The notes beneath the pieces were generated by a model that was not told the origin of the DNA, did no database searches, and saw only the letters and a program-made list of their open reading frames with translations. The translations under genes and the position numbers were made by a program. A stretch of 24,774 nucleotides of DNA from a virus (taxonomy: Duplodnaviria; Heunggongvirae; Uroviricota; Caudoviricetes), in the IMG/VR virus record IMGVR_UViG_2778261448_000010, positions 1-24,774 of that record. One strand, 5' to 3'. Of the stretch, positions 427 through 11,526 are shown piece by piece (the stretch's first letter is position 1; each line of letters begins with the position of its first letter).

Positions 427-2559
427 TCACTTAAAAGGAGTGTTTATCCTAACAACTCTCAAATAAACATCTCTTATATTTTCACCTCCATTTGGCCTTA
501 AAACTGTTGCTGAAATAACTCCACTTTGTGAAGCAGATACTGTTGCGTTATATACTAATGAACTATTGAATTGTTGAGCGTGTATTTGCCTTGATGTTGT
601 TTCAATTTGCTCTCCGGCTCTCATCATAACTGCATGTTCTGAAAAACACCCGCCAGCACCAGTTGTTGTTGTCGCTGTAACCTCAACTCTATAGAAATAC
701 ATAGCAAGCGTACCTGAGTTTACTGAATTATTTGGAACTGGCACTTGTACGGTTATTGAGACTGGGCCGCTATCAACTCCTGTTGCCTGAGCACACCAGC
801 CAATTTCACCATTCTGAGATATTAATGTGAATATGCATCGATCTTTTGTCCCAGCGTTTACCTGATACGTTGTTGTATAGGTGGCACCATAGAAATGCTC
901 TACGGTTATGGCAGTACCGAAGTTCTCTCCCCAACCAGTCCATGAAGGCCAGATACTGGCATTGCTTTTAATGGCTACGCCATTATTGATGCACTTCAGA
1001 GACACTTTCCCATTATTACAAGAACTCAAGAGCACAGGGACTCCAGGAATGCTGTTCCTTAGTGTTATCTCAACATCCGGCTGCTCTGCGGTTACCAACA
1101 TTAGTGGCTCGACTGTTCTTGGAACCGTATTGAGCGGTATGTTAATCTCCATGTCGCGCACTCGCGTCCTTGTACCGCCACATAGAAATGCGCATACACC
1201 ACCTACATTAGCAGGAAGATAAAGTCGAACACCTTCAAAAGACAAATCAAAAACATCCGATTGAGAATTTGTGATGATTTGAATAAGGTGTATAGGGCCG
1301 TTAACGTTTTCTCCCGTAAAATTACTCTTACTGGTGATGTTTCTGTAAATACCACCTGTTCCTGATACTTTTGCCGCAAACACTGGTGTGTCCGTCATGG
1401 TGCAAACTAAACCATCAACAACACACCCTGTTGACCCCGTGAGTTGTAAAGTTACATTGCAGCCGCCGTATCTGTTAGATAGAAGATTTCCGAACTCACC
1501 ACAGTTTGTTATAGAACCACTAGTGTTATTGATATACATCAGGTGTGACGGACCATACGCACCGAAACTTTCGTCATGCCGCAATGTCCCATACACGTAC
1601 TCAATATTGCATCCTGCAAAGTTGTTAATAAGTGCGCATGAATAGTGTGTACAATAGATGTTAGAGAAGAGAGAGCCTCTAAAATCACCCTCATAACCAG
1701 AAACAAGGAAGTCGTAGCGATTATCGCTGGTTTCACCGACTGCCATCGCATTAATCAATTTGAAACGATACGCGTTTGAATTCATCCCGATAAAGCCACA
1801 GAACGCAGCTTCCCACGGGCGAGTAATTCCATAGCGAGTGGTTGTTGTGCCCCCCAAAGGATAGCCGCCTTTATAGACAGCATTAAATCCCATAATGGTC
1901 ACATCAGGATTCCTGTTCATGAAGACCAGAAATCCAGTTTTCTCATGAGTTATTTTAGCACCGTTAAAATCAATATATGCACCAGCGGGAGGAGTGATGA
2001 CATTTTCCTCATTCATCACCATACGATATGTGGAACCTCTCTTCATGAGGCATCTTCCAGTCATAATAGCATTAGTCACCGCCACTGTATCATCAGCTAC
2101 ACCATCTCCAATTGCTCCATATTGCTCTGGCGTTGCCCAATATGACAAACTATCCGCTACTGTACCAGCCAAGTATCCAATTTTAGTTGCACCATCTTCT
2201 TCAGACAGTTCACTTCGAAATTGATCAGGGTCGTACTTCAGCACATTCGGAAAATAGAACTGCTGCACACCGTACGCATCATAAACAGCCATAGAATGGC
2301 CTTGCACAGTTACGAACTTGGCAATCTGTCCGTTATATACAGGGTAACCAGCAGCGTTAATGATGATTGGTTGCGAAACAGGAACGTGAGAGCCGTCTTC
2401 GTTTTCCACATAAACCTGAATCTGGTTTTCAGGATGTACAGGGTCAGTGTCAATTTTTCCGATATAAATTTTGCCATTGGCTACGGCTTTAAAAGATCGC
2501 GCCATAGTGAAGAGTTGCGAAGGCATCGATACGATCACATTGGCTGTAATGTCTGTCAT
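427..2559 (-). CDS. Tailspike protein (P22 gp9-like head-binding domain, HK620-like length)
   Basis: The 710-aa ORF starts [13 protein letters not shown]...[19 protein letters not shown]...[12 protein letters not shown]...NVLKYDPDQ, matching the conserved N-terminal head-binding domain of P22 tailspike. The remainder differs from P22 gp9. 710 aa is the length I recall for the HK620 tailspike. RBS GGAG lies upstream of the ATG. Confidence 0.9.
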
Positions 2560-2615
2560 TTAATTTGCTCCAGATACAAGGAATCGCCGCAGCGTAGCTA
2601 CGGTGAATTTTGGGC

Positions 2616-2642
2616 ATAAAAAAACCCAGCCGAAGCTGGGTC
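2616..2642 (-). terminator. Rho-independent terminator between antirepressor-like gene and tailspike
   Basis: Perfect hairpin CCCAGC-cgaa-GCTGGG (2625-2640), followed on the minus strand by a 7-U tract (plus-strand AAAAAAA at 2618-2624). Confidence 0.7.
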
Positions 2643-2659
2643 GTTGCGTTGGTTATCTG

Positions 2660-3590
2660 TCAGTAGTTATGTACTGAAGGAGGCAATTCTTTATTCTTAA
2701 GTCTCATCCATGCGGAAAGATTCGTTGGTCCGTCTGGCTCATTAATATCAACATCTCGTGTGTGGTTTATTAAAACGTCTCTCGCCATTCCGATAACATA
2801 CGAGAATTCATGACCGTAGTCGTAGCATCTGCCGGAATAGTTCGATTGAATTTGTTTTAGCGCCGGATACAGTTCGCGGAATAATGCCTGTGAGCGGTTG
2901 GCATAATCCCATAACCATACAAGGCTGTTTGCTTCTTTTGCAGAAAGCTCGTTGGTTTTCTTCTCTTGTTTGCCAATGAACTCACCTTCAAGTGGAACTC
3001 GAGCTGCAAGTGACAGTGCTTCGGTAAACTGCTCCTCACTGATTTCTTTGTACGAACATCCAAAATGGGATTTCAGTGACGACCACATGGTGATCATCGC
3101 CTTAGCCTGTTTTTCTTTTGGCAGAGACTGACCGCGACTCATGACGAGTTGTTTAATGGCTTCCTGCTGTTCAGTGGTGATTTTACCCGGCAACGCCTTT
3201 TTAGCTTTGCGTGGGTTAACTACATGGCCTTTAGTCCAGTACTCATAGAGCACATCGTCACACTCTTCCTGATACTGGATTACATTGTCGCGGATTTCAG
3301 GACGGACTTTGTTAGGGCTGATGGTTTGCAGCCAACCTGCAAGTTTGCGAAGTGCCAAACAAATAATCTCACGGCACTGTTCATCACCAGGAAGCTGCAT
3401 TGTGATTTTCACAATGGAGGTTTTAAACCGTTGCTTTATTTTCGTAAACTGTGAAGCCCAATCCATACCCATGCCTATCAACGATAGGTTTCATTGGGGT
3501 GTACGGTTCACCGTTGTGATTGACGACATAAAGCTCTGCGCCGTGGAATGGCACGTTGATAGTAGATACTGCCGTTGCTATACTTTTCAT
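2660..3590 (-). pseudogene. Antirepressor-like gene (P22 Ant N-terminal domain family) disrupted by a 1-bp frameshift
   Basis: A 55-codon ORF from ATG 3588-3590 ([38 protein letters not shown]...) ends at stop 3423-3425. The 273-aa track ORF (2660-3481, TTG start) continues the same domain in another frame ([14 protein letters not shown]...LPGDEQ...RKLAGWL...[12 protein letters not shown]...[15 protein letters not shown]). Removing the minus-strand A at about 3476 would fuse them into ...[16 protein letters not shown]... Confidence 0.6.
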
Positions 3591-3678
3591 GTCAGTTTTT
3601 CCTCAAAATTTACTGACGATTTAAGCCCGAGCTACTCGCAATAGGTTGTTTGATGGGTAAATCATGATTACTCCTTAT

Positions 3679-3700
3679 AAAAAACCCACCTGACGGTGGG
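3679..3700. terminator. Bidirectional intrinsic terminator-like hairpin downstream of the lipoprotein gene
   Basis: Hairpin CCCACC-tgac-GGTGGG (3685-3700) is flanked by AAAAAA on one side and TTTCATTTCTT on the other, giving a U-tract on both strands. Confidence 0.65.
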
Positions 3701-3709
3701 TTTCATTTC

Positions 3710-4141
3710 TTAATCTTGCTTCGTGGAAGGTATAAGAGATGCATTTGCCTCTTTTGGCTTCAATGTATACATCCCACCATTAAATGGATCAACAGCAAGC
3801 CAACCGATTAACCCACCAAACACAAGGTTTCCACCAATATACCAACCATTAGCATTGGCTTTGATTGGCAGGGTAACTGGTTCGTACCCATCCTTCTCCA
3901 TAGTGATCTGGTAGCTCTTTTTGCCAAAATAACTACCATCTGACTTGGCAAGAGTTACTCCTTGCGGGGTCTTACCTTGCGCAACAATCACGCCTGATTC
4001 GTCTTTTACCTTAAAGCTCGCACCGGAAGGGTTGCTGTTCACTTGCACAAGTTGCGTTTCATCACCAACAATAGTTGCGCACCCAGATAACATCATAGCA
4101 CCAGCAACGACGCCAATAATCCTCTTCATATCAATTTCCAT
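3710..4141 (-). CDS. Predicted outer-membrane lipoprotein with PEGA-like domain (moron; possible superinfection exclusion)
   Basis: The ORF has signal peptide MKRIIGVVAGAMMLSGC with lipobox LSGC, and Ala follows the Cys. The likely true start is the second ATG at 4127-4129. The central segment resembles a PEGA-type beta domain (...GKTPQGVTL...SYQITMEKDGYEPVTLPI) and the C-terminus is Gly-rich (GWYIGGNLVFGGLIGW). It has its own downstream terminator. Confidence 0.75.
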   Translation of the reverse strand: MEIDMKRIIGVVAGAMMLSGCATIVGDETQLVQVNSNPSGASFKVKDESGVIVAQGKTPQGVTLAKSDGSYFGKKSYQITMEKDGYEPVTLPIKANANGWYIGGNLVFGGLIGWLAVDPFNGGMYTLKPKEANASLIPSTKQD

Positions 4142-4246
4142 ATTTAAAAAACCGGAAACATCCTAATGACAAACCATTCAAATGTGAAGTAGGCAAAAGA
4201 TGTTTACTTTTTTCATGGTATCCTGCACAAAACTAAGGAGGTTGGC

Positions 4247-4570
4247 GTGTATACAACAGTTATCGTGATAGCTATCGCACTCATTGTGGTTCAGTACCAA
4301 CTGGCATCTTTAAAACAAAAGATATCTGACCTCAAGACTGAGAACGAAGCACTTAAAAACTCAATAAAAGATGAGAAGAACAAACTATCATTCACTATAT
4401 CTGATATTGAGCAATCCATTGAAATTATTGAGAATAATATTAACAGACTAAAAAAAGAAGATATTCATGAAATCAATGACAATATCAAGGATTTGAAATC
4501 TTGGCTTAGGAATGTAGGACAAATCGCCACATCAACACGAGATAAGCTCAATCCATCCATGGATGATTAA
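4247..4570 (+). CDS. Small bitopic membrane protein with N-terminal TM helix and coiled coil (moron of unknown function)
   Basis: This is the only convincing plus-strand gene. GTG start is preceded by a strong SD TAAGGAGG (4234-4241) with 5-nt spacing. The hydrophobic N-terminus is YTTVIVIAIALIVVQY, followed by a K/E/N-rich heptad-like region. Composition is visibly AT-rich relative to flanking structural genes. Its stop TAA (4568-4570) abuts the gp16 stop (4571-4573). Confidence 0.7.
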   Translation: MYTTVIVIAIALIVVQYQLASLKQKISDLKTENEALKNSIKDEKNKLSFTISDIEQSIEIIENNINRLKKEDIHEINDNIKDLKSWLRNVGQIATSTRDKLNPSMDD

Positions 4571-6697
4571 TTACTCCTGTGCTATTCCGCTTAGCGACGC
4601 TACAATGCCAGCCCTCGCTAAGCGATTGAACTCTTCGTTTCCAACTGCATCACGTATTGCTTTTACGGCGGCTTTATTTGCCATAAATCTGCGTTCCGCT
4701 GCCGCTAATGCTTCTTTGCTTCCGCCTGTTCTTACTGCTTTAGTGGCTTCCTGAACTGCTTTCTCTATCGCATACCGACCACTACGTGTGGTGGCAATTT
4801 TAGATACAGCGCCTTTTAACCCAGCGCCAACTAAAGCACCTGCGGCAGCGCCTGCAATGCCTCCTCCAGCGCCACCAACAATGGCACCTGATGTTGAGTT
4901 GGCAATTGCATTTAACACTGTTGATGTGACGTTGGATAAACCAGCATCCAGATCGCGTAGTACATTGGCAGTTCTCCCTGTTCTTTCAATATACTGCTGA
5001 GGTTTCACTGCTGCTCTTGCAAGAGTGCCATACGCATCAGCAATTCTTCCAAGCTCTGAGGAATATCTGCTAATGGCTTTTACATTTTGTGGAGTGAGTA
5101 TCTCTGCGATATGGTTAATTCCTGCTGCATCAGCTTTGCCACCACGTACACCATGCGAGATGGCATCCTGCAACATTGATGATATAGCAGGAACACGCTC
5201 TGATTCTGGCAGCGCGCGGATCATAGAATGGAATCCAGCAGGACCATTAAGGCCTTTAGCTGACGATGATTGAAGAGATTTTACTCCATTCGTAATCAGT
5301 GCATCTGTTGCCAAATCACGCCCAAAGACAGACTCTGCACTCTCTTGTGCGGATAACCTCGCTTTAGACAGATCATTAGCTTTTTGCCAGTCATCAAGAA
5401 ATCCGCCGTTTTCCGCCATTGTGCGCATATCATCAGTAATTGCCCGGCGTATTTCCCCTGCTCTCCTTGCCGCATTTGCCTCTCCGCTACGCTTATATTT
5501 TTGCTCCGCATCAGCAAATTTCGCTCTCCATGCTTTCATGCCATCAAATGTTACTCCACCTTGATTGTTTGCCTGAACAAACTGTTTCATTTCAGGAGTA
5601 AGCGGTATGCCAGCAGATCGCTCTGCCTGAATAACGGCATTACCATTTAGCATTCTTGCTTTTTGATTTGGCATTGTTGACCGCACGTCATCCCATGCCG
5701 CGCGCTCGGCATCCTTCATCTGATCAAGATTTTGAAGAATCCTTTGTTTTATAGCCGCACTTTTTTCTGATGCCGTTCCAGATGCGGCCCCAAATTCATC
5801 AAGGTTTCGACTTAACTTTGATGATATTTCGTTAAATGCTGCCTGATGGGCGTCCTGAACAATTCCTGGTGTTGATGCCAATGCTCCTTCGGCTTGTGCA
5901 ATTCCACGACTTCCAGATCGCATTCCTGGTGTTAATGCGTTTATATCAATTCCAGCAGACTCAGCCGCTTTTGCTACATCTTCGGACACATTAGCGGCCT
6001 GACTGGCAATTGACTGACGCCCAGCACCTGACTTTGCCATCCTGGAAACATCATTAGCAGAATTCAGTGCTGCACCACCAAGAGCCTGTGAAACCCTTGG
6101 CGCAATAACGCGCCCAAAACCTGAAAGAACGCCTTGAGCGCCAATATTGATACCACCGTTAATGGCAGCATTTTGTGCAAAGTCGCCCTCCTGATTTGCA
6201 GCATCAGCAAGAGAACCTGCAATCATGTTTCCTGCGGAACCGATGTCTCCTGCGAGCTTTGCTGGCGCTCCAGCAGCTTTTGCCGCTGTGCCAATTGGCA
6301 GGAGATACCCACCAATTGTTTCACCAGCTTGCGCGTAAGGGTCTGTCGGTCTGTCTACTGGACGATAAACATCATCCAAAACCTTGGGGCCACCAAGCCC
6401 CTGACTGATTGCATTAATCAGACTTGCGCCACCCTGCAATACGTCAAATGGTATGTTTACCAGACCACGACCAGCCTGTTCTGCAATTTGCCCTGCACTT
6501 TGACCACCAGTGAGCCAATCGCCAGCTTTTTGCATCAATGATGGTTCTTCACGTGCTGGTTCATTGCTATCCTGGCTGACAGTTTGTTGCTGAACAGACT
6601 GTCCAGCAAAATACTCATCAATGGCAGATCCAATATCTTCCGTGCTCGTACCATCAGGGAAGGTAAATGTCTTACCGTTTGCAGTTACTTTCATCAT
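4571..6697 (-). CDS. Ejection (E) protein gp16-like
   Basis: The 708-aa ORF begins [33 protein letters not shown], matching the P22 gp16 N-terminus as I recall it. It sits after gp20 in the conserved order 7-20-16. Confidence 0.85.
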
Positions 6698-8100
6698 TCC
6701 ACCGTAAATTGAATGCCTGATTTTGAGGTATATGATCCAACCTGATTCCGTGGTTCTCCTGAAGGTATCGAATCTTGTGCTGGCGCTGCGTCAGTATTCA
6801 ATGACATATACCGCTTAACAGCACTCCCCAATGATTCACCTTTTTTAACATCCAACCCCAATATCTGACCGCCATTACGCGATTGTCCAGGGTTGCCATT
6901 CGCGCTCATCCACTCAGCTTTAAACTCATTAAACTGCGCGTTTCGTCGCTCAAGGTTTGCCATTGCATCAAGCCATCTTGCGACCGTCTCAGGGTTATCC
7001 ATGTCAGTTGGCGCACCCTGTCTAACGATCTCAACGTCTTTATCCGTTGCTGGGCCGGGAGGTAGGAATTTAAGAACCTGACTGTTAACAAGGGCATTTT
7101 GGCGAATGCGCAAATCACGCAATGTCGTATCGCTTCCGGTAAGTTTTGCGAACATGTTCTGTGCGTTACCGAACAAACCTGTCGTTGGTTTTTCTGCTCT
7201 GAACTGTTGAGCAAGCGCACTCATAGAATTGGCTGAGTTTGATGATGCTGTGGCATTGTTTACAGCCGTCTCGATGCCTTTTTCCATGTTTACTGACAGC
7301 TTAGGTGCTTCGCTAATCAACTGCTGAGCCTTTTCCTGCGCTTGCTGCATCTTAAACCCGAACTCTTGCTGATCCAGAGCCAAGCGTTGTGCTGCGATAT
7401 TGTGCCCAGTCATTGCTGACTGATAGGAAAGGTTTTGCCCTCTCGCCTGAAGTGCTTCTCCGGCCTGATTGCTGCGGATTGTCTCTGCCAGCCTGCCTCG
7501 GTCAATCTCACGACCAGCCATCTTGTCCTGAACATTGAAGTAGTCAATCGGACCAAGAGCAGCCATTCCAAGGTGATCAACAAACTCACCAAATCCTGAA
7601 GGGTTCTGCTGATACATCTGAGCAACACTGTTAGGGTCAACACCGACGCGAGTCAGTTCCTTGGCGTTGTTTTGCAGCCATGATTGCATTGCTTCTGGAG
7701 ACGATGACGCAAGGCGTGCGCCAGCCGCTAAGGTGCCGATAGAATTACGCTGGTCTTCATCAATGAATCCCATGCCTTTACGAACGGATTCAATCTGGTC
7801 TGGATATTGAGTAGCCAACTGACGCAAAGCACCGCGATCACCAGACGCATAAGCATTAGCGTATGCCTGCTGAAATTCTTTCTGCCGCTGAGCCTGCTTT
7901 TCCTGCTGAAACACCCCCGCAATACCTGAAAGGCCTTGCAAAGCAGTCAGCCCAACATTGTTAGCGCCTGAACGCTCAATATCATTGTTCTGCCTAATAA
8001 GTTGAAGCGTATTGCCGATGTCATTTACGCTCGGAGCGTTTGAGTTGACGCCGCCGATACCAGCCAACAATCCGCCGTTTGTTCCTTGCCAAGTAGCCAT
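6694..8100 (-). CDS. Ejection (E) protein gp20-like
   Basis: The 468-aa ORF ([17 protein letters not shown]...) has the size and position of P22 gp20; its start overlaps the gp16 region. Confidence 0.8.
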
Positions 8101-8109
8101 GATTACCCC

Positions 8110-8802
8110 TTAAAACAACGAGCCAAGCAATCCGATACCAGCACCAATGCCAGCGCCCCAAGGTGTTGATGTTCCCAAAAGGCTGGCAAGACCTGCACCG
8201 GCAATCGCACCAGACGTTCCGCCACTAATTGCAGTCTGAAGACTTGATGGTTTATTGGCATTAGCAGCGGCAAGAGCTGCGCTTTGCTGTGCAATGCTGC
8301 TCATGTTGTTGGCGTACGTCTGCCCGGCGTTTGCCTGACCTTGCAGCGCACCAAGCCCAACGTTTGCCAGATTGTTGTAATTGCTCATCTGGTTTGATAA
8401 CCAAGACTGACCGAGTGTCGGCGCGATCGTAGCCAGTTGATTGCTTATGGCTGTCGAACCAAGTCCGCCAGTCGCTTCCGCAGCAGCAAGACTCTGGTAA
8501 CGAGCCTGACCTGCAAGGTCTTTATACTGCTGAGAATTGTAATACTGATTAAGTGCCTGTCCCTGACCTTCTAAACTGGAAAGATTCTGAAGCTGGTTAA
8601 CATACTGCTCCGCAAGCGGCGTGAACGGAGCAAGGTTTTTCATGATCGTCTGCCACTGCTGATTTTGCAGGTCTGCGGCATACTTCTGAGCTTCTGCGGC
8701 ATACTTTGCGCTTTTATCAGAACTGCCACCTTTCCCGCCTTTTTCAGGGCAATAAGGTTCCTCGCCGCGCAGTTTTCTGCCCATCTTAAATGCATATAAC
8801 AT
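8110..8802 (-). CDS. Ejection (E) protein gp7-like
   Basis: The 230-aa ORF MLYAF.MGRKLRGEEP..PEKGGKGGSSDKSA.YAAEAQKYAADLQNQQWQTIMKNL... closely matches P22 gp7 (229 aa) as I recall it. Confidence 0.85.
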   Translation of the reverse strand: MLYAFKMGRKLRGEEPYCPEKGGKGGSSDKSAKYAAEAQKYAADLQNQQWQTIMKNLAPFTPLAEQYVNQLQNLSSLEGQGQALNQYYNSQQYKDLAGQARYQSLAAAEATGGLGSTAISNQLATIAPTLGQSWLSNQMSNYNNLANVGLGALQGQANAGQTYANNMSSIAQQSAALAAANANKPSSLQTAISGGTSGAIAGAGLASLLGTSTPWGAGIGAGIGLLGSLF

Positions 8803-10108: not shown

Positions 10109-11526
10109 TACTCAATCCTTATCTGGCAGCCAGACAGAGTGACAGGTGACTTAGTGATAACGCGCAATTTGAAGCCAATGTTTTTCCTGATGCGCCCTAC
10201 TTTCTTCCACAAAACGCGTTTGTCGTAAACGAACGGTTCATTCTGCTCAATCATCTGCTCACGCCCGTAATTGATGCCGTCAGTGGTTGCAGAGAGGAAC
10301 AGGCGGTCAGCGTACTGCGCAACGCCAGTTGAAGATTCAACTTCAAGGTCGAAAACTCTGGCGTTATCTGCTTTGAACAACGGAGTAAACAGCAGGTGTT
10401 CTTGTTGCTTGTCGTACTGGCTGCCGATATCGAACTGCAGTTTCCCGGTAACAGATTCCAGCTTATCGCCGCACGTTATCTGATTGCCTTCGTAAATGAA
10501 GTCGATAGCGCGGTACACATCGTCATACAGGCCTGTTTTCAACACACACCATTGCGGACCATTGGCGCTTGAAGATGCGTCGTACACGAGGACGTGACGT
10601 GGAAGATGGATAATCAGCAATTCATGAGCATCAAAGCGCAACGATTCCATCACGCCATCAGCCAGTTCATCAGCAGTGTAGGAGCGGAGGATTTTCTCAA
10701 TGCTCGCGCTGGCGATTGGTGACACCTGACCGGAGCCGATGATGTATACAGACGGCGCACCTGTTGCCGGATTGCTTATGAACGCATACGAATCAGCAAA
10801 CGGCGTTTTGCAGTAAGTCCCGGCGATGCCTTTTTGCACCATCAGTGATGGCTGTGCGACATACAAAGCGGCACCAACGGTGGTTGCGCCAGTCAGGGAG
10901 AAATATTCAATCGTCGATGAGCCAAAGCAAACGATGAAGTCTCGCCATGTACCTATGCCGATGATGCCGTCCGGCTGCGATTCTGCGCGATATTGTGCGC
11001 TGTAACGGTCAGGATGCGATTCGTCTTCAAGGTCAGTGATAAACCACGAATCAGTTCCGTCTTTTGACCACGCATAACGCCCACGTAAGCGTGTAATGTC
11101 GCGGACTGAGCCTAACTCATACTGCGTGAATCCGCTGTCTGTAGGCCAGTTTGAGACGGTTTTAACCGTGCCATCATAGCGATACTCAACCAGTTGACCA
11201 TTAACGCCTACAGCCTGAGATGTTCGACCATGCGCCATTGATACGCGACCACTTCCGGCGACGTCACCGACTTCGCTTTCGCCTTTGTAGAGCTTGCCGC
11301 CACACACACGATAGACAGCATTCTGCGCCATGTTGTACTCGACGCCGCGCGATACACCGTTCACATCAGAGCGTTTGGCAATGCCCGGGAATGAGCGAAG
11401 ATATCCGCTGCTGTTCAGGATTTCTTTGGGGGTTGCCAACATATTCACTGGCAGATAGTCGATATAGTCGGCGTTTCGAAAGTCTTTGCCGACACCTTTC
11501 ATAAGCGGAAGTTGCTGAATCGGCAT
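10108..11526 (-). CDS. Tail hub protein gp10-like
   Basis: The 472-aa [52 protein letters not shown]... is near-identical over the N-terminus to P22 gp10 (472 aa) as I recall it. Confidence 0.9.

What the first reader, a model, noticed from the sequence alone, without database searches (positions are those of the whole stretch)
3590..4570. Variable moron locus at the sieA/immI-equivalent hotspot between ejection genes and tailspike
Between gp16 and the tailspike, where P22 carries sieA and the immI antirepressor module, this prophage has two small envelope-targeted genes in divergent orientation. One is an outer-membrane lipoprotein with a PEGA-like domain and its own terminator. The other is an AT-rich, GTG-initiated 107-aa protein with one N-terminal TM helix and a long coiled coil. 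Neither looks like a virion component, and both look built for expression from the prophage. This is the classic position for superinfection-exclusion or other host-protective cargo, and I do not recognise either protein as a characterised exclusion factor. It is the best candidate in the window for an undescribed phage-defence or exclusion function.
Basis: partly seen in the sequence, partly recalled or inferred. Interest (0 to 1): 0.7.

Follow-up and report, generated by a model that had tools for sequence, protein, structure and literature searches.

The report
Two envelope morons in P22-like prophage
Between the DNA-ejection genes and the tailspike of this P22-like prophage sit two small, independently acquired membrane-protein genes that are already present, without a known function, in phages ε34, HK620 and CUS-3; they are reasonable but untested candidates for blocking infection by rival phages.

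Summary
Window 3710-4129 (-) encodes a 139-aa lipoprotein with a transthyretin/PEGA-like β-sandwich and its own terminator. Window 4247-4570 (+) encodes an AT-rich, GTG-started, 107-aa protein with one transmembrane segment and a coiled coil.

The locus is not new. It is 96% identical to Salmonella phage ε34 genes 15 and 14. The 107-aa gene is hkcB of HK620 and CUS-3. The slot is the "ant moron" described in 2008. The window also keeps a broken ant gene whose regulators arc and mnt are deleted.

The two genes are separate cassettes, adjacent in only 10 of 5,426 E. coli genomes.
- hkcB occupies the place and orientation of P22 sieA. It abuts or nearly abuts the gene 16 stop in all 14 loci examined. 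In relatives it ends operons headed by mnt or an S24 repressor, which argues for expression in the lysogen.
- The lipoprotein belongs to a large, mostly chromosomal proteobacterial family. One branch recurs as a moron inside siphovirus tail operons.

Neither matches a characterised exclusion or defence family. Superinfection exclusion is the best-supported guess (about 0.4) but is only inferred. Moderate interest: new members of a known kind.

The parts
3710..4129 (-). Lipoprotein gene (139 aa from the M5 start; an alternative upstream ATG lies at 4141). Signal peptide with lipobox LSGC (Cys17), a transthyretin/PEGA-like β-sandwich (about residues 25-93 plus 121-131), and a hydrophobic glycine-zipper helix (residues 95-113). 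Equivalent to ε34 gene 15 and to phrog_6823.
3679..3703 (-). Intrinsic terminator of the lipoprotein cassette: stem 3685-3690/3695-3700, loop TGAC, and a T6 run on the - strand. It reads more weakly on the + strand, where it ends mnt in ε34.
4160..4188 (-). σ70-like promoter candidate for the lipoprotein gene (TTCACA-17-TAGGAT, 9 of 12 matches). This is a weak consensus match only.
4199..4246 (+). Conserved 5' edge of the hkcB cassette. It holds an extended -10-like TGGTATCCT (4216-4224), a Shine-Dalgarno AAGGAGG (4235-4241), and on the - strand the remnant start of hkcC (MKKVNI, 4199-4216).
4247..4570 (+). hkcB: a 107-aa, GTG-started, AT-rich gene for a single-pass membrane protein with a long coiled coil and a conserved C-terminal motif (EDIH..D.I..LK.WL.NVG.IATSTRDK.NPS). 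Equivalent to ε34 gene 14 and to phrog_5962. Its stop codon abuts the stop codon of gene 16.
4588..4624 (+). Conserved 9-10-bp inverted repeat inside the last codons of gene 16, 18 nt downstream of the hkcB stop. It is not followed by a U-run. It could mark the 3' end or stabilise the hkcB transcript.
4571..6697 (-). Gene 16 homologue (708-aa ejection / DNA transfer protein). It is convergent with hkcB and is the proposed target or partner.
2660..3590 (-). Degraded ant (antirepressor), split into two ORFs by a frameshift near 3470-3476. Its regulators arc and mnt are deleted; the junction lies at 3604-3643.

Best explanation
The region is the 'ant moron' of a P22-like prophage and holds two unrelated, independently acquired accessory cassettes.

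(1) hkcB is the positional counterpart of P22 sieA.
- Shown: it lies immediately after gene 16 and convergent with it, so it is antisense to the late operon.
- Shown: it has its own conserved -10-like element, strong Shine-Dalgarno sequence and GTG start.
- Inferred: it is made in the lysogen as a single-pass inner-membrane protein. The coiled coil probably faces the cytoplasm (positive-inside rule), and the conserved C-terminal motif is a binding surface.
- Inferred mechanism: like SieA, it interferes at the inner membrane with the gp16/gp20 DNA-delivery conduit of incoming P22-like phages.

(2) The lipoprotein is a classical moron, with a promoter-like site, a gene and a terminator inside the late operon.
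- Shown: it was captured from a large cellular family of envelope lipoproteins.
- Inferred: it sits at the outer membrane. Residue +2 after the lipid-modified Cys is Ala, and one relative is fused to an OmpA-like barrel.
- Inferred mechanism: it alters the envelope so that incoming phages fail after adsorption, in the manner of Cor, Llp or Ltp.

Shown overall: anatomy, homology, independence of the two genes, purifying selection and genomic contexts. Inferred overall: expression state, localisation and the exclusion function.
For: hkcB:
- It has the same position and orientation as sieA in P22, where sieA has its own annotated promoter.
- The hkcB stop directly abuts the gene 16 stop (0-nt gap) in 13 of the 14 loci examined, which span 48-100% HkcB identity; the gap is 4 nt in L106.
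- In Klebsiella aerogenes, Citrobacter freundii and CUS-3 it is the last gene of a same-strand cluster headed by mnt. In L089 the same mnt-headed genes lie on the hkcB strand, but two opposite-strand genes, including the lipoprotein, separate them from hkcB. In L106 it directly follows an HTH + Peptidase_S24 repressor. These are lysogen-type transcription units.
- dN/dS is 0.1-0.3.
- The hydrophobic N-terminal segment is conserved (Q16 invariant) and so is the C-terminal motif.
- In 14 aligned homologues there are no K/R residues before the hydrophobic segment and 3-5 in the 15 residues after it.
- The window has its own holin, endolysin and Rz, so hkcB is not the phage's spanin.

Lipoprotein:
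- It has a terminator and a promoter-like site.
- Close relatives (66-79% identity) are inserted in siphovirus tail operons: between T and the tape measure in E. coli and Proteus, where the Proteus copy has a promoter-like site and flanking terminators, and between I and J or next to the tape measure in other Enterobacterales.
- A distant member follows the repressor gene in Caulobacter phage DMCA.
- The same slot in other P22-like prophages carries other lipoproteins and transmembrane/coiled-coil proteins.
- Exclusion lipoproteins are typically encoded next to receptor-binding genes (PMC11990801).
Against: - There is no experimental or transcriptomic evidence for either gene, here or in the papers found.
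- Neither protein resembles SieA, Cor or any PADLOC model in sequence.
- HkcB has one transmembrane segment, whereas SieA has several predicted ones.
- The lipoprotein gene is co-oriented with the late operon, so it could equally be expressed late in lytic growth.
- Most members of the lipoprotein family are chromosomal and not phage-associated: 74 of 80 species loci lack tail genes nearby, and synteny is conserved in Erwinia/Pantoea, Photorhabdus and Lonsdalea. That points to a housekeeping envelope role that need not concern phages.
- The promoter calls are weak consensus matches, no more frequent than in shuffled sequence.
Confidence: 0.4

Rival explanations
1. Both are host-fitness morons rather than phage-exclusion genes. 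They would be envelope proteins that improve survival of the lysogen (serum or stress resistance, outer-membrane integrity, adhesion), as Bor and Lom do for λ.
For: - The lipoprotein family is overwhelmingly chromosomal and conserved in synteny across Proteobacteria, so it has a cellular envelope function.
- Siphovirus prophages that carry it also carry a porin moron in the tail operon.
- It has no similarity to known exclusion proteins.
Against: - hkcB is restricted to P22-like prophages (41 clusters, all in Enterobacteriaceae).
- hkcB is rigidly tied to gene 16. That is hard to explain for a general host-fitness gene.
- The phage-borne lipoprotein clade is always next to DNA-delivery or tail genes.
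Confidence: 0.3
2. The active product of the hkcB unit is partly or wholly RNA. The transcript has no terminator before gene 16, so it runs antisense into the 3' end of gene 16 and silences that gene in superinfecting relatives. The asRNA STnc6030 does this in the P22-like prophage BTP1.
For: - There is no canonical terminator after hkcB. The only feature is a conserved hairpin inside gene 16.
- The 3' third of hkcB and the 3' end of gene 16 form one conserved DNA block, even against HK620.
- BTP1 STnc6030 is expressed from the prophage, is antisense to the 3' end of the injection gene, excludes BTP1, and has escape SNPs in a 36-bp stretch at that 3' end (PMC7067206).
Against: - hkcB is clearly under protein-level purifying selection, with conserved length, Shine-Dalgarno sequence and motifs.
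- The hairpin shows only one compensatory change.
- Rfam finds nothing here.
- An RNA role would be additional to the protein, not a replacement for it.
Confidence: 0.15
3. HkcB serves the phage's own life cycle, for example by modulating its own DNA ejection through gp16, lysis timing, or host cell division as an FtsB/DivIC-like transmembrane coiled-coil mimic. It would then not protect the lysogen.
For: - hkcB has strict physical linkage to gene 16.
- There are weak DivIC, FtsL and Rz-like profile hits over the transmembrane segment and the start of the coiled coil.
- The hydrophobic segment has an invariant Gln16. FtsB also has a functionally important Gln in its transmembrane helix (my own knowledge, not tested here).
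Against: - All those hits are below the family cut-offs and are typical of coiled-coil noise.
- Many viable P22-like phages lack hkcB, including P22 and Gally.
- The gene is antisense to the late operon and sits in mnt or repressor operons in relatives.
- The window has a complete lysis cassette.
Confidence: 0.1

Closest known systems
ε34 genes 14 and 15, HK620/CUS-3 hkcB, and the 'ant moron' of P22-like phages (Villafane et al. 2008, PMC2629481)
   Same: - The DNA is 96% identical over both genes.
- The proteins are 99.1% and 97.8% identical.
- The slot, orientation and terminator are the same.
   Different: The window has lost arc and mnt and has a frameshifted ant, whereas ε34 and E. coli H5 keep an intact immI region.
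P22 SieA (inner-membrane superinfection exclusion protein, PMC10883804)
   Same: - The gene sits immediately downstream of gene 16 and convergent with it, and it has its own expression signals.
- It encodes a small membrane protein.
- The slot is polymorphic among P22-like phages.
   Different: - There is no sequence similarity.
- HkcB has one transmembrane segment plus a coiled coil, whereas SieA is multi-pass.
- The HkcB phenotype is unknown.
Cor (φ80/N15/HK022), Llp (T5) and Ltp (TP-J34) exclusion lipoproteins
   Same: They are small phage-encoded lipoproteins encoded beside the host-recognition or DNA-delivery genes and are expressed independently of those genes.
   Different: - Only the signal peptide matches the Cor profile (E 0.004, residues 5-24).
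- The fold differs: a transthyretin/PEGA-like sandwich plus a glycine-zipper helix.
- The target is unknown.
- The family is mostly chromosomal.
BTP1 STnc6030 antisense RNA (PMC7067206)
   Same: It is a leftward unit between the tailspike and the injection gene of a P22-like prophage that reaches the 3' end of the injection gene. Expression from the prophage is shown for BTP1 and inferred here.
   Different: - The authors found no ORF longer than 60 aa in STnc6030, whereas hkcB is a conserved protein gene.
- There is no sequence relationship: BTP1 is not among the hkcB hits.
λ Bor and Lom, and the Lc porin (fitness or conversion morons in late operons)
   Same: They are envelope proteins inserted as promoter-gene-terminator units in late or tail operons.
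   Different: They belong to different protein families, and no phenotype is known here.

Membership tests
SieA (phrog_7745) | Sequence homology to P22, HS1 or type C SieA | tested here: not met
   HkcB hits phrog_5962, not phrog_7745. blastp of HkcB against P22 SieA gives no hit at 1e-3.
SieA (phrog_7745) | Gene lies between gene 16 and gene 9, adjacent to and convergent with gene 16 | tested here: met
   Window 4570/4571. The same junction is found in 14 loci (0-nt gap in 13, 4 nt in L106). P22 sieA lies 22 nt from gene 16 on the opposite strand.
SieA (phrog_7745) | [quoted passage not shown] | not testable with these tools
   HkcB has one hydrophobic segment. Any exclusion phenotype needs plating and DNA-entry assays.
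Bacterial lipoprotein | Signal peptide ending in a lipobox [LVI][ASTVI][GAS]C | tested here: met
   The sequence is MKRIIGVVAGAMMLSG-C17. Cys17 is invariant in 37 of 37 homologues, and residue +2 is an invariant Ala.
PEGA domain (PF08308) | Score above the Pfam gathering threshold | tested here: not met
   17.5 bits against a cut-off of 20.8, E 0.004.
Transthyretin / CarboxypepD_reg-like β-sandwich fold | Structural similarity of the predicted domain | tested here: met
Cor superinfection exclusion (phrog_1119) | Profile match beyond the signal peptide | tested here: not met
   E 0.0036, covering residues 5-24 only.
Moron (independently expressed insert in a late operon) | Present or absent between genes that are adjacent in related phages | tested here: met
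   The slot content differs in P22, ε34, HK620, CUS-3, SEN22, Gally and several prophages. In E. coli genomes the counts are 123, 72 and 10.
Moron (independently expressed insert in a late operon) | Own promoter and terminator | tested here: inconclusive
   The lipoprotein terminator is clear. The promoter candidates are weak (9 of 12 matches, or a -10-like element only) and no more frequent than in shuffles. No terminator was found for hkcB.
Moron (independently expressed insert in a late operon) | Expression from the repressed prophage | not testable with these tools
   Only context is available: hkcB lies in mnt- or repressor-headed clusters in relatives.
Rz-like i-spanin | Significant profile match and a role in the lysis cassette with an o-spanin partner | tested here: not met
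   PHROG Rz hits have E of 1e-3 to 2e-3 only. The window has a separate Rz (phrog_13, E 3e-72), endolysin and holin.
DivIC / FtsB / FtsL | Score above the Pfam or NCBIfam cut-off | tested here: not met
   DivIC scores 21.5 against 28.9 bits. FtsL scores 15-16 bits against 42-55.
Known anti-phage defence systems (PADLOC-DB 2.0) | Match to any model | tested here: not met
   The lipoprotein has no hits. HkcB has only coiled-coil noise, with E of 6e-4 or worse against SMC-like models.

The most novel reading that the evidence does not exclude
HkcB defines a new family of single-pass inner-membrane superinfection-exclusion proteins that takes the place of SieA in P22-like phages with the long (about 680-720-aa) gp16. 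It would act on the C-terminal part of gp16 as the conduit inserts into the inner membrane. Separately, the lipoprotein clade would be an exclusion factor shared by podovirus and siphovirus prophages that blocks formation of the trans-envelope DNA conduit (ejection proteins or tape measure) rather than a specific receptor.
Probability: 0.25. Interest if true: 0.6.

Novelty: new member of a known kind. Interest (0 to 1): 0.4.

Why it matters
Only about a third of sequenced P22-like phages carry sieA (22 of 66, PMC10883804). What the others carry in that slot is unknown.

If HkcB, and the other small envelope proteins found there, are functional replacements for SieA, they would offer several things:
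- independent probes of how the gp7/gp20/gp16 conduit crosses the envelope;
- an explanation for the fast evolution of gene 16;
- additions to the short list of injection-blocking exclusion proteins.

The lipoprotein clade is common: close alleles occur in 123 of 5,426 complete E. coli genomes, and further alleles sit in siphovirus prophages of E. coli and Proteus. A phenotype would therefore annotate many 'hypothetical' prophage genes at once.

If neither gene affects phage plating, the locus is simply another set of lysogenic-conversion genes of unknown benefit.

Tried and rejected
- PADLOC, NCBIfam and Pfam gave only sub-threshold or coiled-coil-noise hits.
- Rfam found nothing meaningful in 2400-5400.
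- PDB sequence searches with both family profiles returned only generic β-sandwich or designed coiled-coil matches.
- Foldseek against the PDB gave no hit at E <= 0.001. BFVD gave one unnamed viral homologue. The afdb50 library was unavailable.
- A scan of one genome per species found no hkcB, which fits its narrow distribution.
- I tested whether HkcB divergence tracks gp16 divergence. Spearman ρ was 0.36 for the full protein and 0.58 for the C-terminal 150 aa. The pairs are not independent and the genes are physically linked, so I do not count this as evidence of co-evolution. L089 in fact combines a 60%-identical HkcB with a 91%-identical gp16.
- The idea that the two genes form one system is rejected. 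The lipoprotein is 98% identical in L089 next to a 60%-identical HkcB. Each gene also occurs without the other in most phages and genomes.
- 'Junk ORF' is rejected for hkcB (dN/dS 0.1-0.3). For the lipoprotein, 3,658 family clusters and invariant motifs argue against it.
- The spanin reading is rejected.
Full report
**What is there**

The window is the late region of a P22-like prophage. On the - strand it reads, from high to low coordinates:
- a Q-like antiterminator, then holin, endolysin and Rz, followed by the head genes;
- the ejection genes 7, 20 and 16 (8110-8802, 6694-8100, 4571-6697);
- the finding's region;
- an Ant-like gene (2660-3590);
- a tailspike with the P22 head-binding domain (427-2559).

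Inside the finding's coordinates there are two ORFs.

ORF 1 is 3710-4141 (-).
- Homologues and the ε34 annotation show it starts at M5, giving 3710-4129 and 139 aa.
- It encodes a lipoprotein: MKRIIGVVAGAMMLSG-C17-ATIVGD.
- Cys17 and Ala18 are invariant in 37 homologues.

ORF 2 is 4247-4570 (+).
- It starts with GTG, 5 nt after AAGGAGG.
- It is 107 aa and 33% GC, against 48% for the window.
- Residues 1-22 are uncharged and hydrophobic. AF2 predicts one continuous helix over residues 2-101.

The two genes diverge across a 117-bp spacer (4130-4246). The lipoprotein gene ends in a good intrinsic terminator on its own strand, with stem 3685-3700 followed by T6.

**It is a known locus**

The block 3679-4800 is 96% identical to Salmonella phage ε34, where the genes are 15 (lipoprotein) and 14. 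The 107-aa gene is hkcB of HK620 and CUS-3.

Villafane et al. (PMC2629481) named the interval between genes 16 and 9 the "ant moron". They reported ten types in sixteen genomes and listed ε34 genes 14 and 15 as of unknown function.

I found no paper that characterises either protein.

**The immI region is degraded, not absent**

- Ant is split into two ORFs. Pfam P22_AR_N positions 2-31 fall in one frame and 29-114 in another, with the shift near 3470-3476.
- Compared with E. coli H5, which has the full ε34-like arrangement, 541 bp carrying arc and mnt are replaced by 72 bp.
- Compared with E. coli ETEC1721, 1,088 bp carrying arc, mnt and a clpP-like gene are replaced by 40 bp.
- In P22, loss of mnt derepresses ant (established knowledge). 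An inactivated ant therefore fits a prophage that has lost mnt.

**The two genes are independent cassettes**

- The lipoprotein occurs with a different partner (phrog_6067, itself a lipoprotein) in phages Gally and vB_EcoP-720R6.
- hkcB occurs with hkcC in HK620, with other genes in SEN22 and CUS-3, and with further partners in prophages.
- In L089 a 98%-identical lipoprotein sits next to an HkcB that is only 60% identical.
- Among 5,426 complete E. coli genomes, 123 carry a close lipoprotein allele and 72 a close hkcB allele (155 counting divergent alleles). Only 10 carry both side by side.
- The conserved 5' edge of the hkcB cassette still contains the first six codons of hkcC on the other strand. 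This suggests the lipoprotein cassette replaced hkcC.

**hkcB**

- The family is small: 41 clusters at 90% identity among 5.8 billion. All are 101-111 aa, and all named sources are Enterobacteriaceae.
- It is under purifying selection, with dN/dS of 0.1-0.3.
- The hydrophobic segment and its invariant Gln16 are conserved, and so is the C-terminal motif EDIH..D.I..LK.WL.NVG.IATSTRDK.NPS. The central coiled coil is variable.
- In all 14 loci I could inspect, hkcB lies next to the gene 16 stop and is convergent with gene 16. The two stops directly abut in 13 loci and are 4 nt apart in L106. These loci span 48-100% HkcB identity.
- This is the position and orientation of sieA in P22, where sieA has its own annotated promoter. 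None of the inspected phages and prophages that carry hkcB has sieA.
- Upstream, the sequence CATGGTATCCTGC.CAAAACTAAGGAGGTTGGYGTG is conserved. It contains an extended -10-like TGGTATCCT.
- In Klebsiella aerogenes, Citrobacter freundii and CUS-3, hkcB is the last gene of a same-strand cluster that begins with mnt. In L106 it directly follows an HTH + Peptidase_S24 repressor. Mnt and CI-type repressors are made in the lysogen, so this is the best available evidence that hkcB is a lysogen-expressed gene.
- In 14 aligned homologues there is no Lys or Arg before the hydrophobic segment and there are 3-5 in the 15 residues after it. By the positive-inside rule this predicts an N-out, C-in orientation with the coiled coil in the cytoplasm. 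That is an inference.
- All profile hits (DivIC, FtsL, Rz-like, SMC-like) are below the family cut-offs and look like coiled-coil noise.

**Lipoprotein**

- The AF2 model has mean pLDDT 77 and a core near 95. It shows a β-sandwich (residues 25-93), a low-confidence hydrophobic glycine-zipper helix (95-113, GWYIGGNLVFGGLIGWLAV), and two strands (121-131) that rejoin the sandwich.
- The family is very large: 3,658 clusters at 50% identity with E <= 1e-3. It spans Gamma-, Beta- and Zetaproteobacteria and beyond. One relative is fused to an OmpA-like barrel.
- In most species the gene is chromosomal. Synteny is conserved next to mmuM and speG-like genes in Erwinia/Pantoea, between rimJ and murJ in Photorhabdus, and next to a lipid A acyltransferase in Lonsdalea.
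- The closest relatives of the window's protein (66-79% identity) are phage-borne.
  - They lie between tail genes I and J, or next to the tape measure, in lambda-like prophages of Pseudescherichia, Phytobacter, Pantoea and others.
  - They lie between the tail chaperone T and the tape measure in E. coli and Proteus prophages. The Proteus copy has a promoter-like site and flanking terminators.
- A distant member (phrog_6823, E 6e-21) follows the repressor gene in Caulobacter phage DMCA.
- One clade of a cellular envelope lipoprotein has therefore been captured repeatedly as a moron beside the DNA-delivery genes of unrelated virion modules.

**Mechanism**

What is shown is the anatomy, the homology, the independent assortment, the selection and the contexts. 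What is inferred is the function.

The best-supported reading, at about 0.4, has two parts.
- HkcB is a SieA-like inner-membrane factor acting on the gp16/gp20 conduit. SieA escape mutants map to the gp16 and gp20 C-termini (PMC10883804).
- The lipoprotein is an envelope-level exclusion factor in the manner of Cor, Llp or Ltp.

The main rival, at about 0.3, is that these are host-fitness conversion genes. The mostly chromosomal lipoprotein family supports that view.

A second rival concerns RNA.
- hkcB has no terminator before gene 16. The only feature is a conserved hairpin at 4588-4624.
- Its transcript should therefore be antisense to the 3' end of gene 16.
- That is the geometry of BTP1's exclusion asRNA STnc6030, whose escape SNPs lie in the 3' end of the injection gene (PMC7067206).
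- A protein is clearly encoded here, so any RNA effect would be additional.

A role in lysis is excluded by the separate, complete lysis cassette.

**Verdict**

- The hotspot and the two genes are already in the literature and databases as unknowns.
- The exclusion idea is reasonable and is now better framed. hkcB is a positional allele of sieA that is tied to gene 16 and embedded in lysogeny operons. The lipoprotein is a moron shared across virion morphotypes.
- The function remains untested.
- Interest is 0.4. Novelty: new members of a known kind.

Noticed in passing
window 2660-3643: The antirepressor gene ant is split by a frameshift near 3470-3476. Its regulators are deleted: arc and mnt relative to E. 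coli H5, and arc, mnt and a clpP-like gene relative to ETEC1721. The deletion junction lies at 3604-3643. This looks like decay of immI in which loss of mnt was tolerated because ant is inactive, or the reverse.
   Followed up: partly
window 4199-4216 (- strand): A remnant of the hkcC start (MKKVNI...) is embedded in the conserved 5' edge of the hkcB cassette. This suggests the lipoprotein cassette displaced hkcC. In HK620 the intact hkcC start sits at the same place.
   Followed up: partly
window 4588-4624: A 9-10-bp inverted repeat (GCTTAGCGA...TCGCTAAGC) lies inside the last 18 codons of gene 16. It is present in 11 of 11 hkcB-bearing loci, with one compensatory double change in L106. It has no U-tract, so it is not a canonical terminator, and its function is unknown.
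   Followed up: partly
L104 2982-4324; L105 3047-4324; L089 1165-2137; L002 (CUS-3) 2419-4340: There is a recurrent same-strand cluster of mnt, phrog_4231 (about 90 aa), phrog_3556/6136 (138-148 aa, with a coiled coil and a C-terminal transmembrane segment) and hkcB, with overlapping stops and starts. It may be a multi-gene lysogen-expressed envelope module. All members are of unknown function.
   Followed up: partly
L092 4645-4977; L093 3182-3667; L091 4514-4918; L004 2881-3396: Other cargo in the same slot is also envelope-targeted. It includes a second transmembrane/coiled-coil protein (phrog_8100), a 161-171-aa lipoprotein family (phrog_6067) and an unrelated 134-aa lipoprotein.
   Followed up: partly
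L095, L097, L098 (E. coli siphovirus prophages), about 10261-11424: A porin gene (Porin_1/Porin_4) is inserted between tail genes M and L in the same prophages that carry the lipoprotein moron between T and the tape measure. These prophages thus have two envelope morons in one tail operon.
   Followed up: no
L002 (CUS-3) 4341-6500 vs L003 (HK620) 4123-6291: My global alignment of the annotated gene 16 products of CUS-3 and HK620 gives 78% identity (92% over the N-terminal 300 aa, 66% over the C-terminal 150 aa). PMC10883804 states 26%. The discrepancy is unexplained.
   Followed up: no
window 3644-3707: The terminator region downstream of the lipoprotein gene is 98-100% identical to the region at the 3' end of clpP-like genes in many E. 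coli prophages, including siphovirus prophages with an mnt/ant module in the tail operon (one search hits H88-H96; L096). It may act as a shared recombination boundary for these morons.
   Followed up: no
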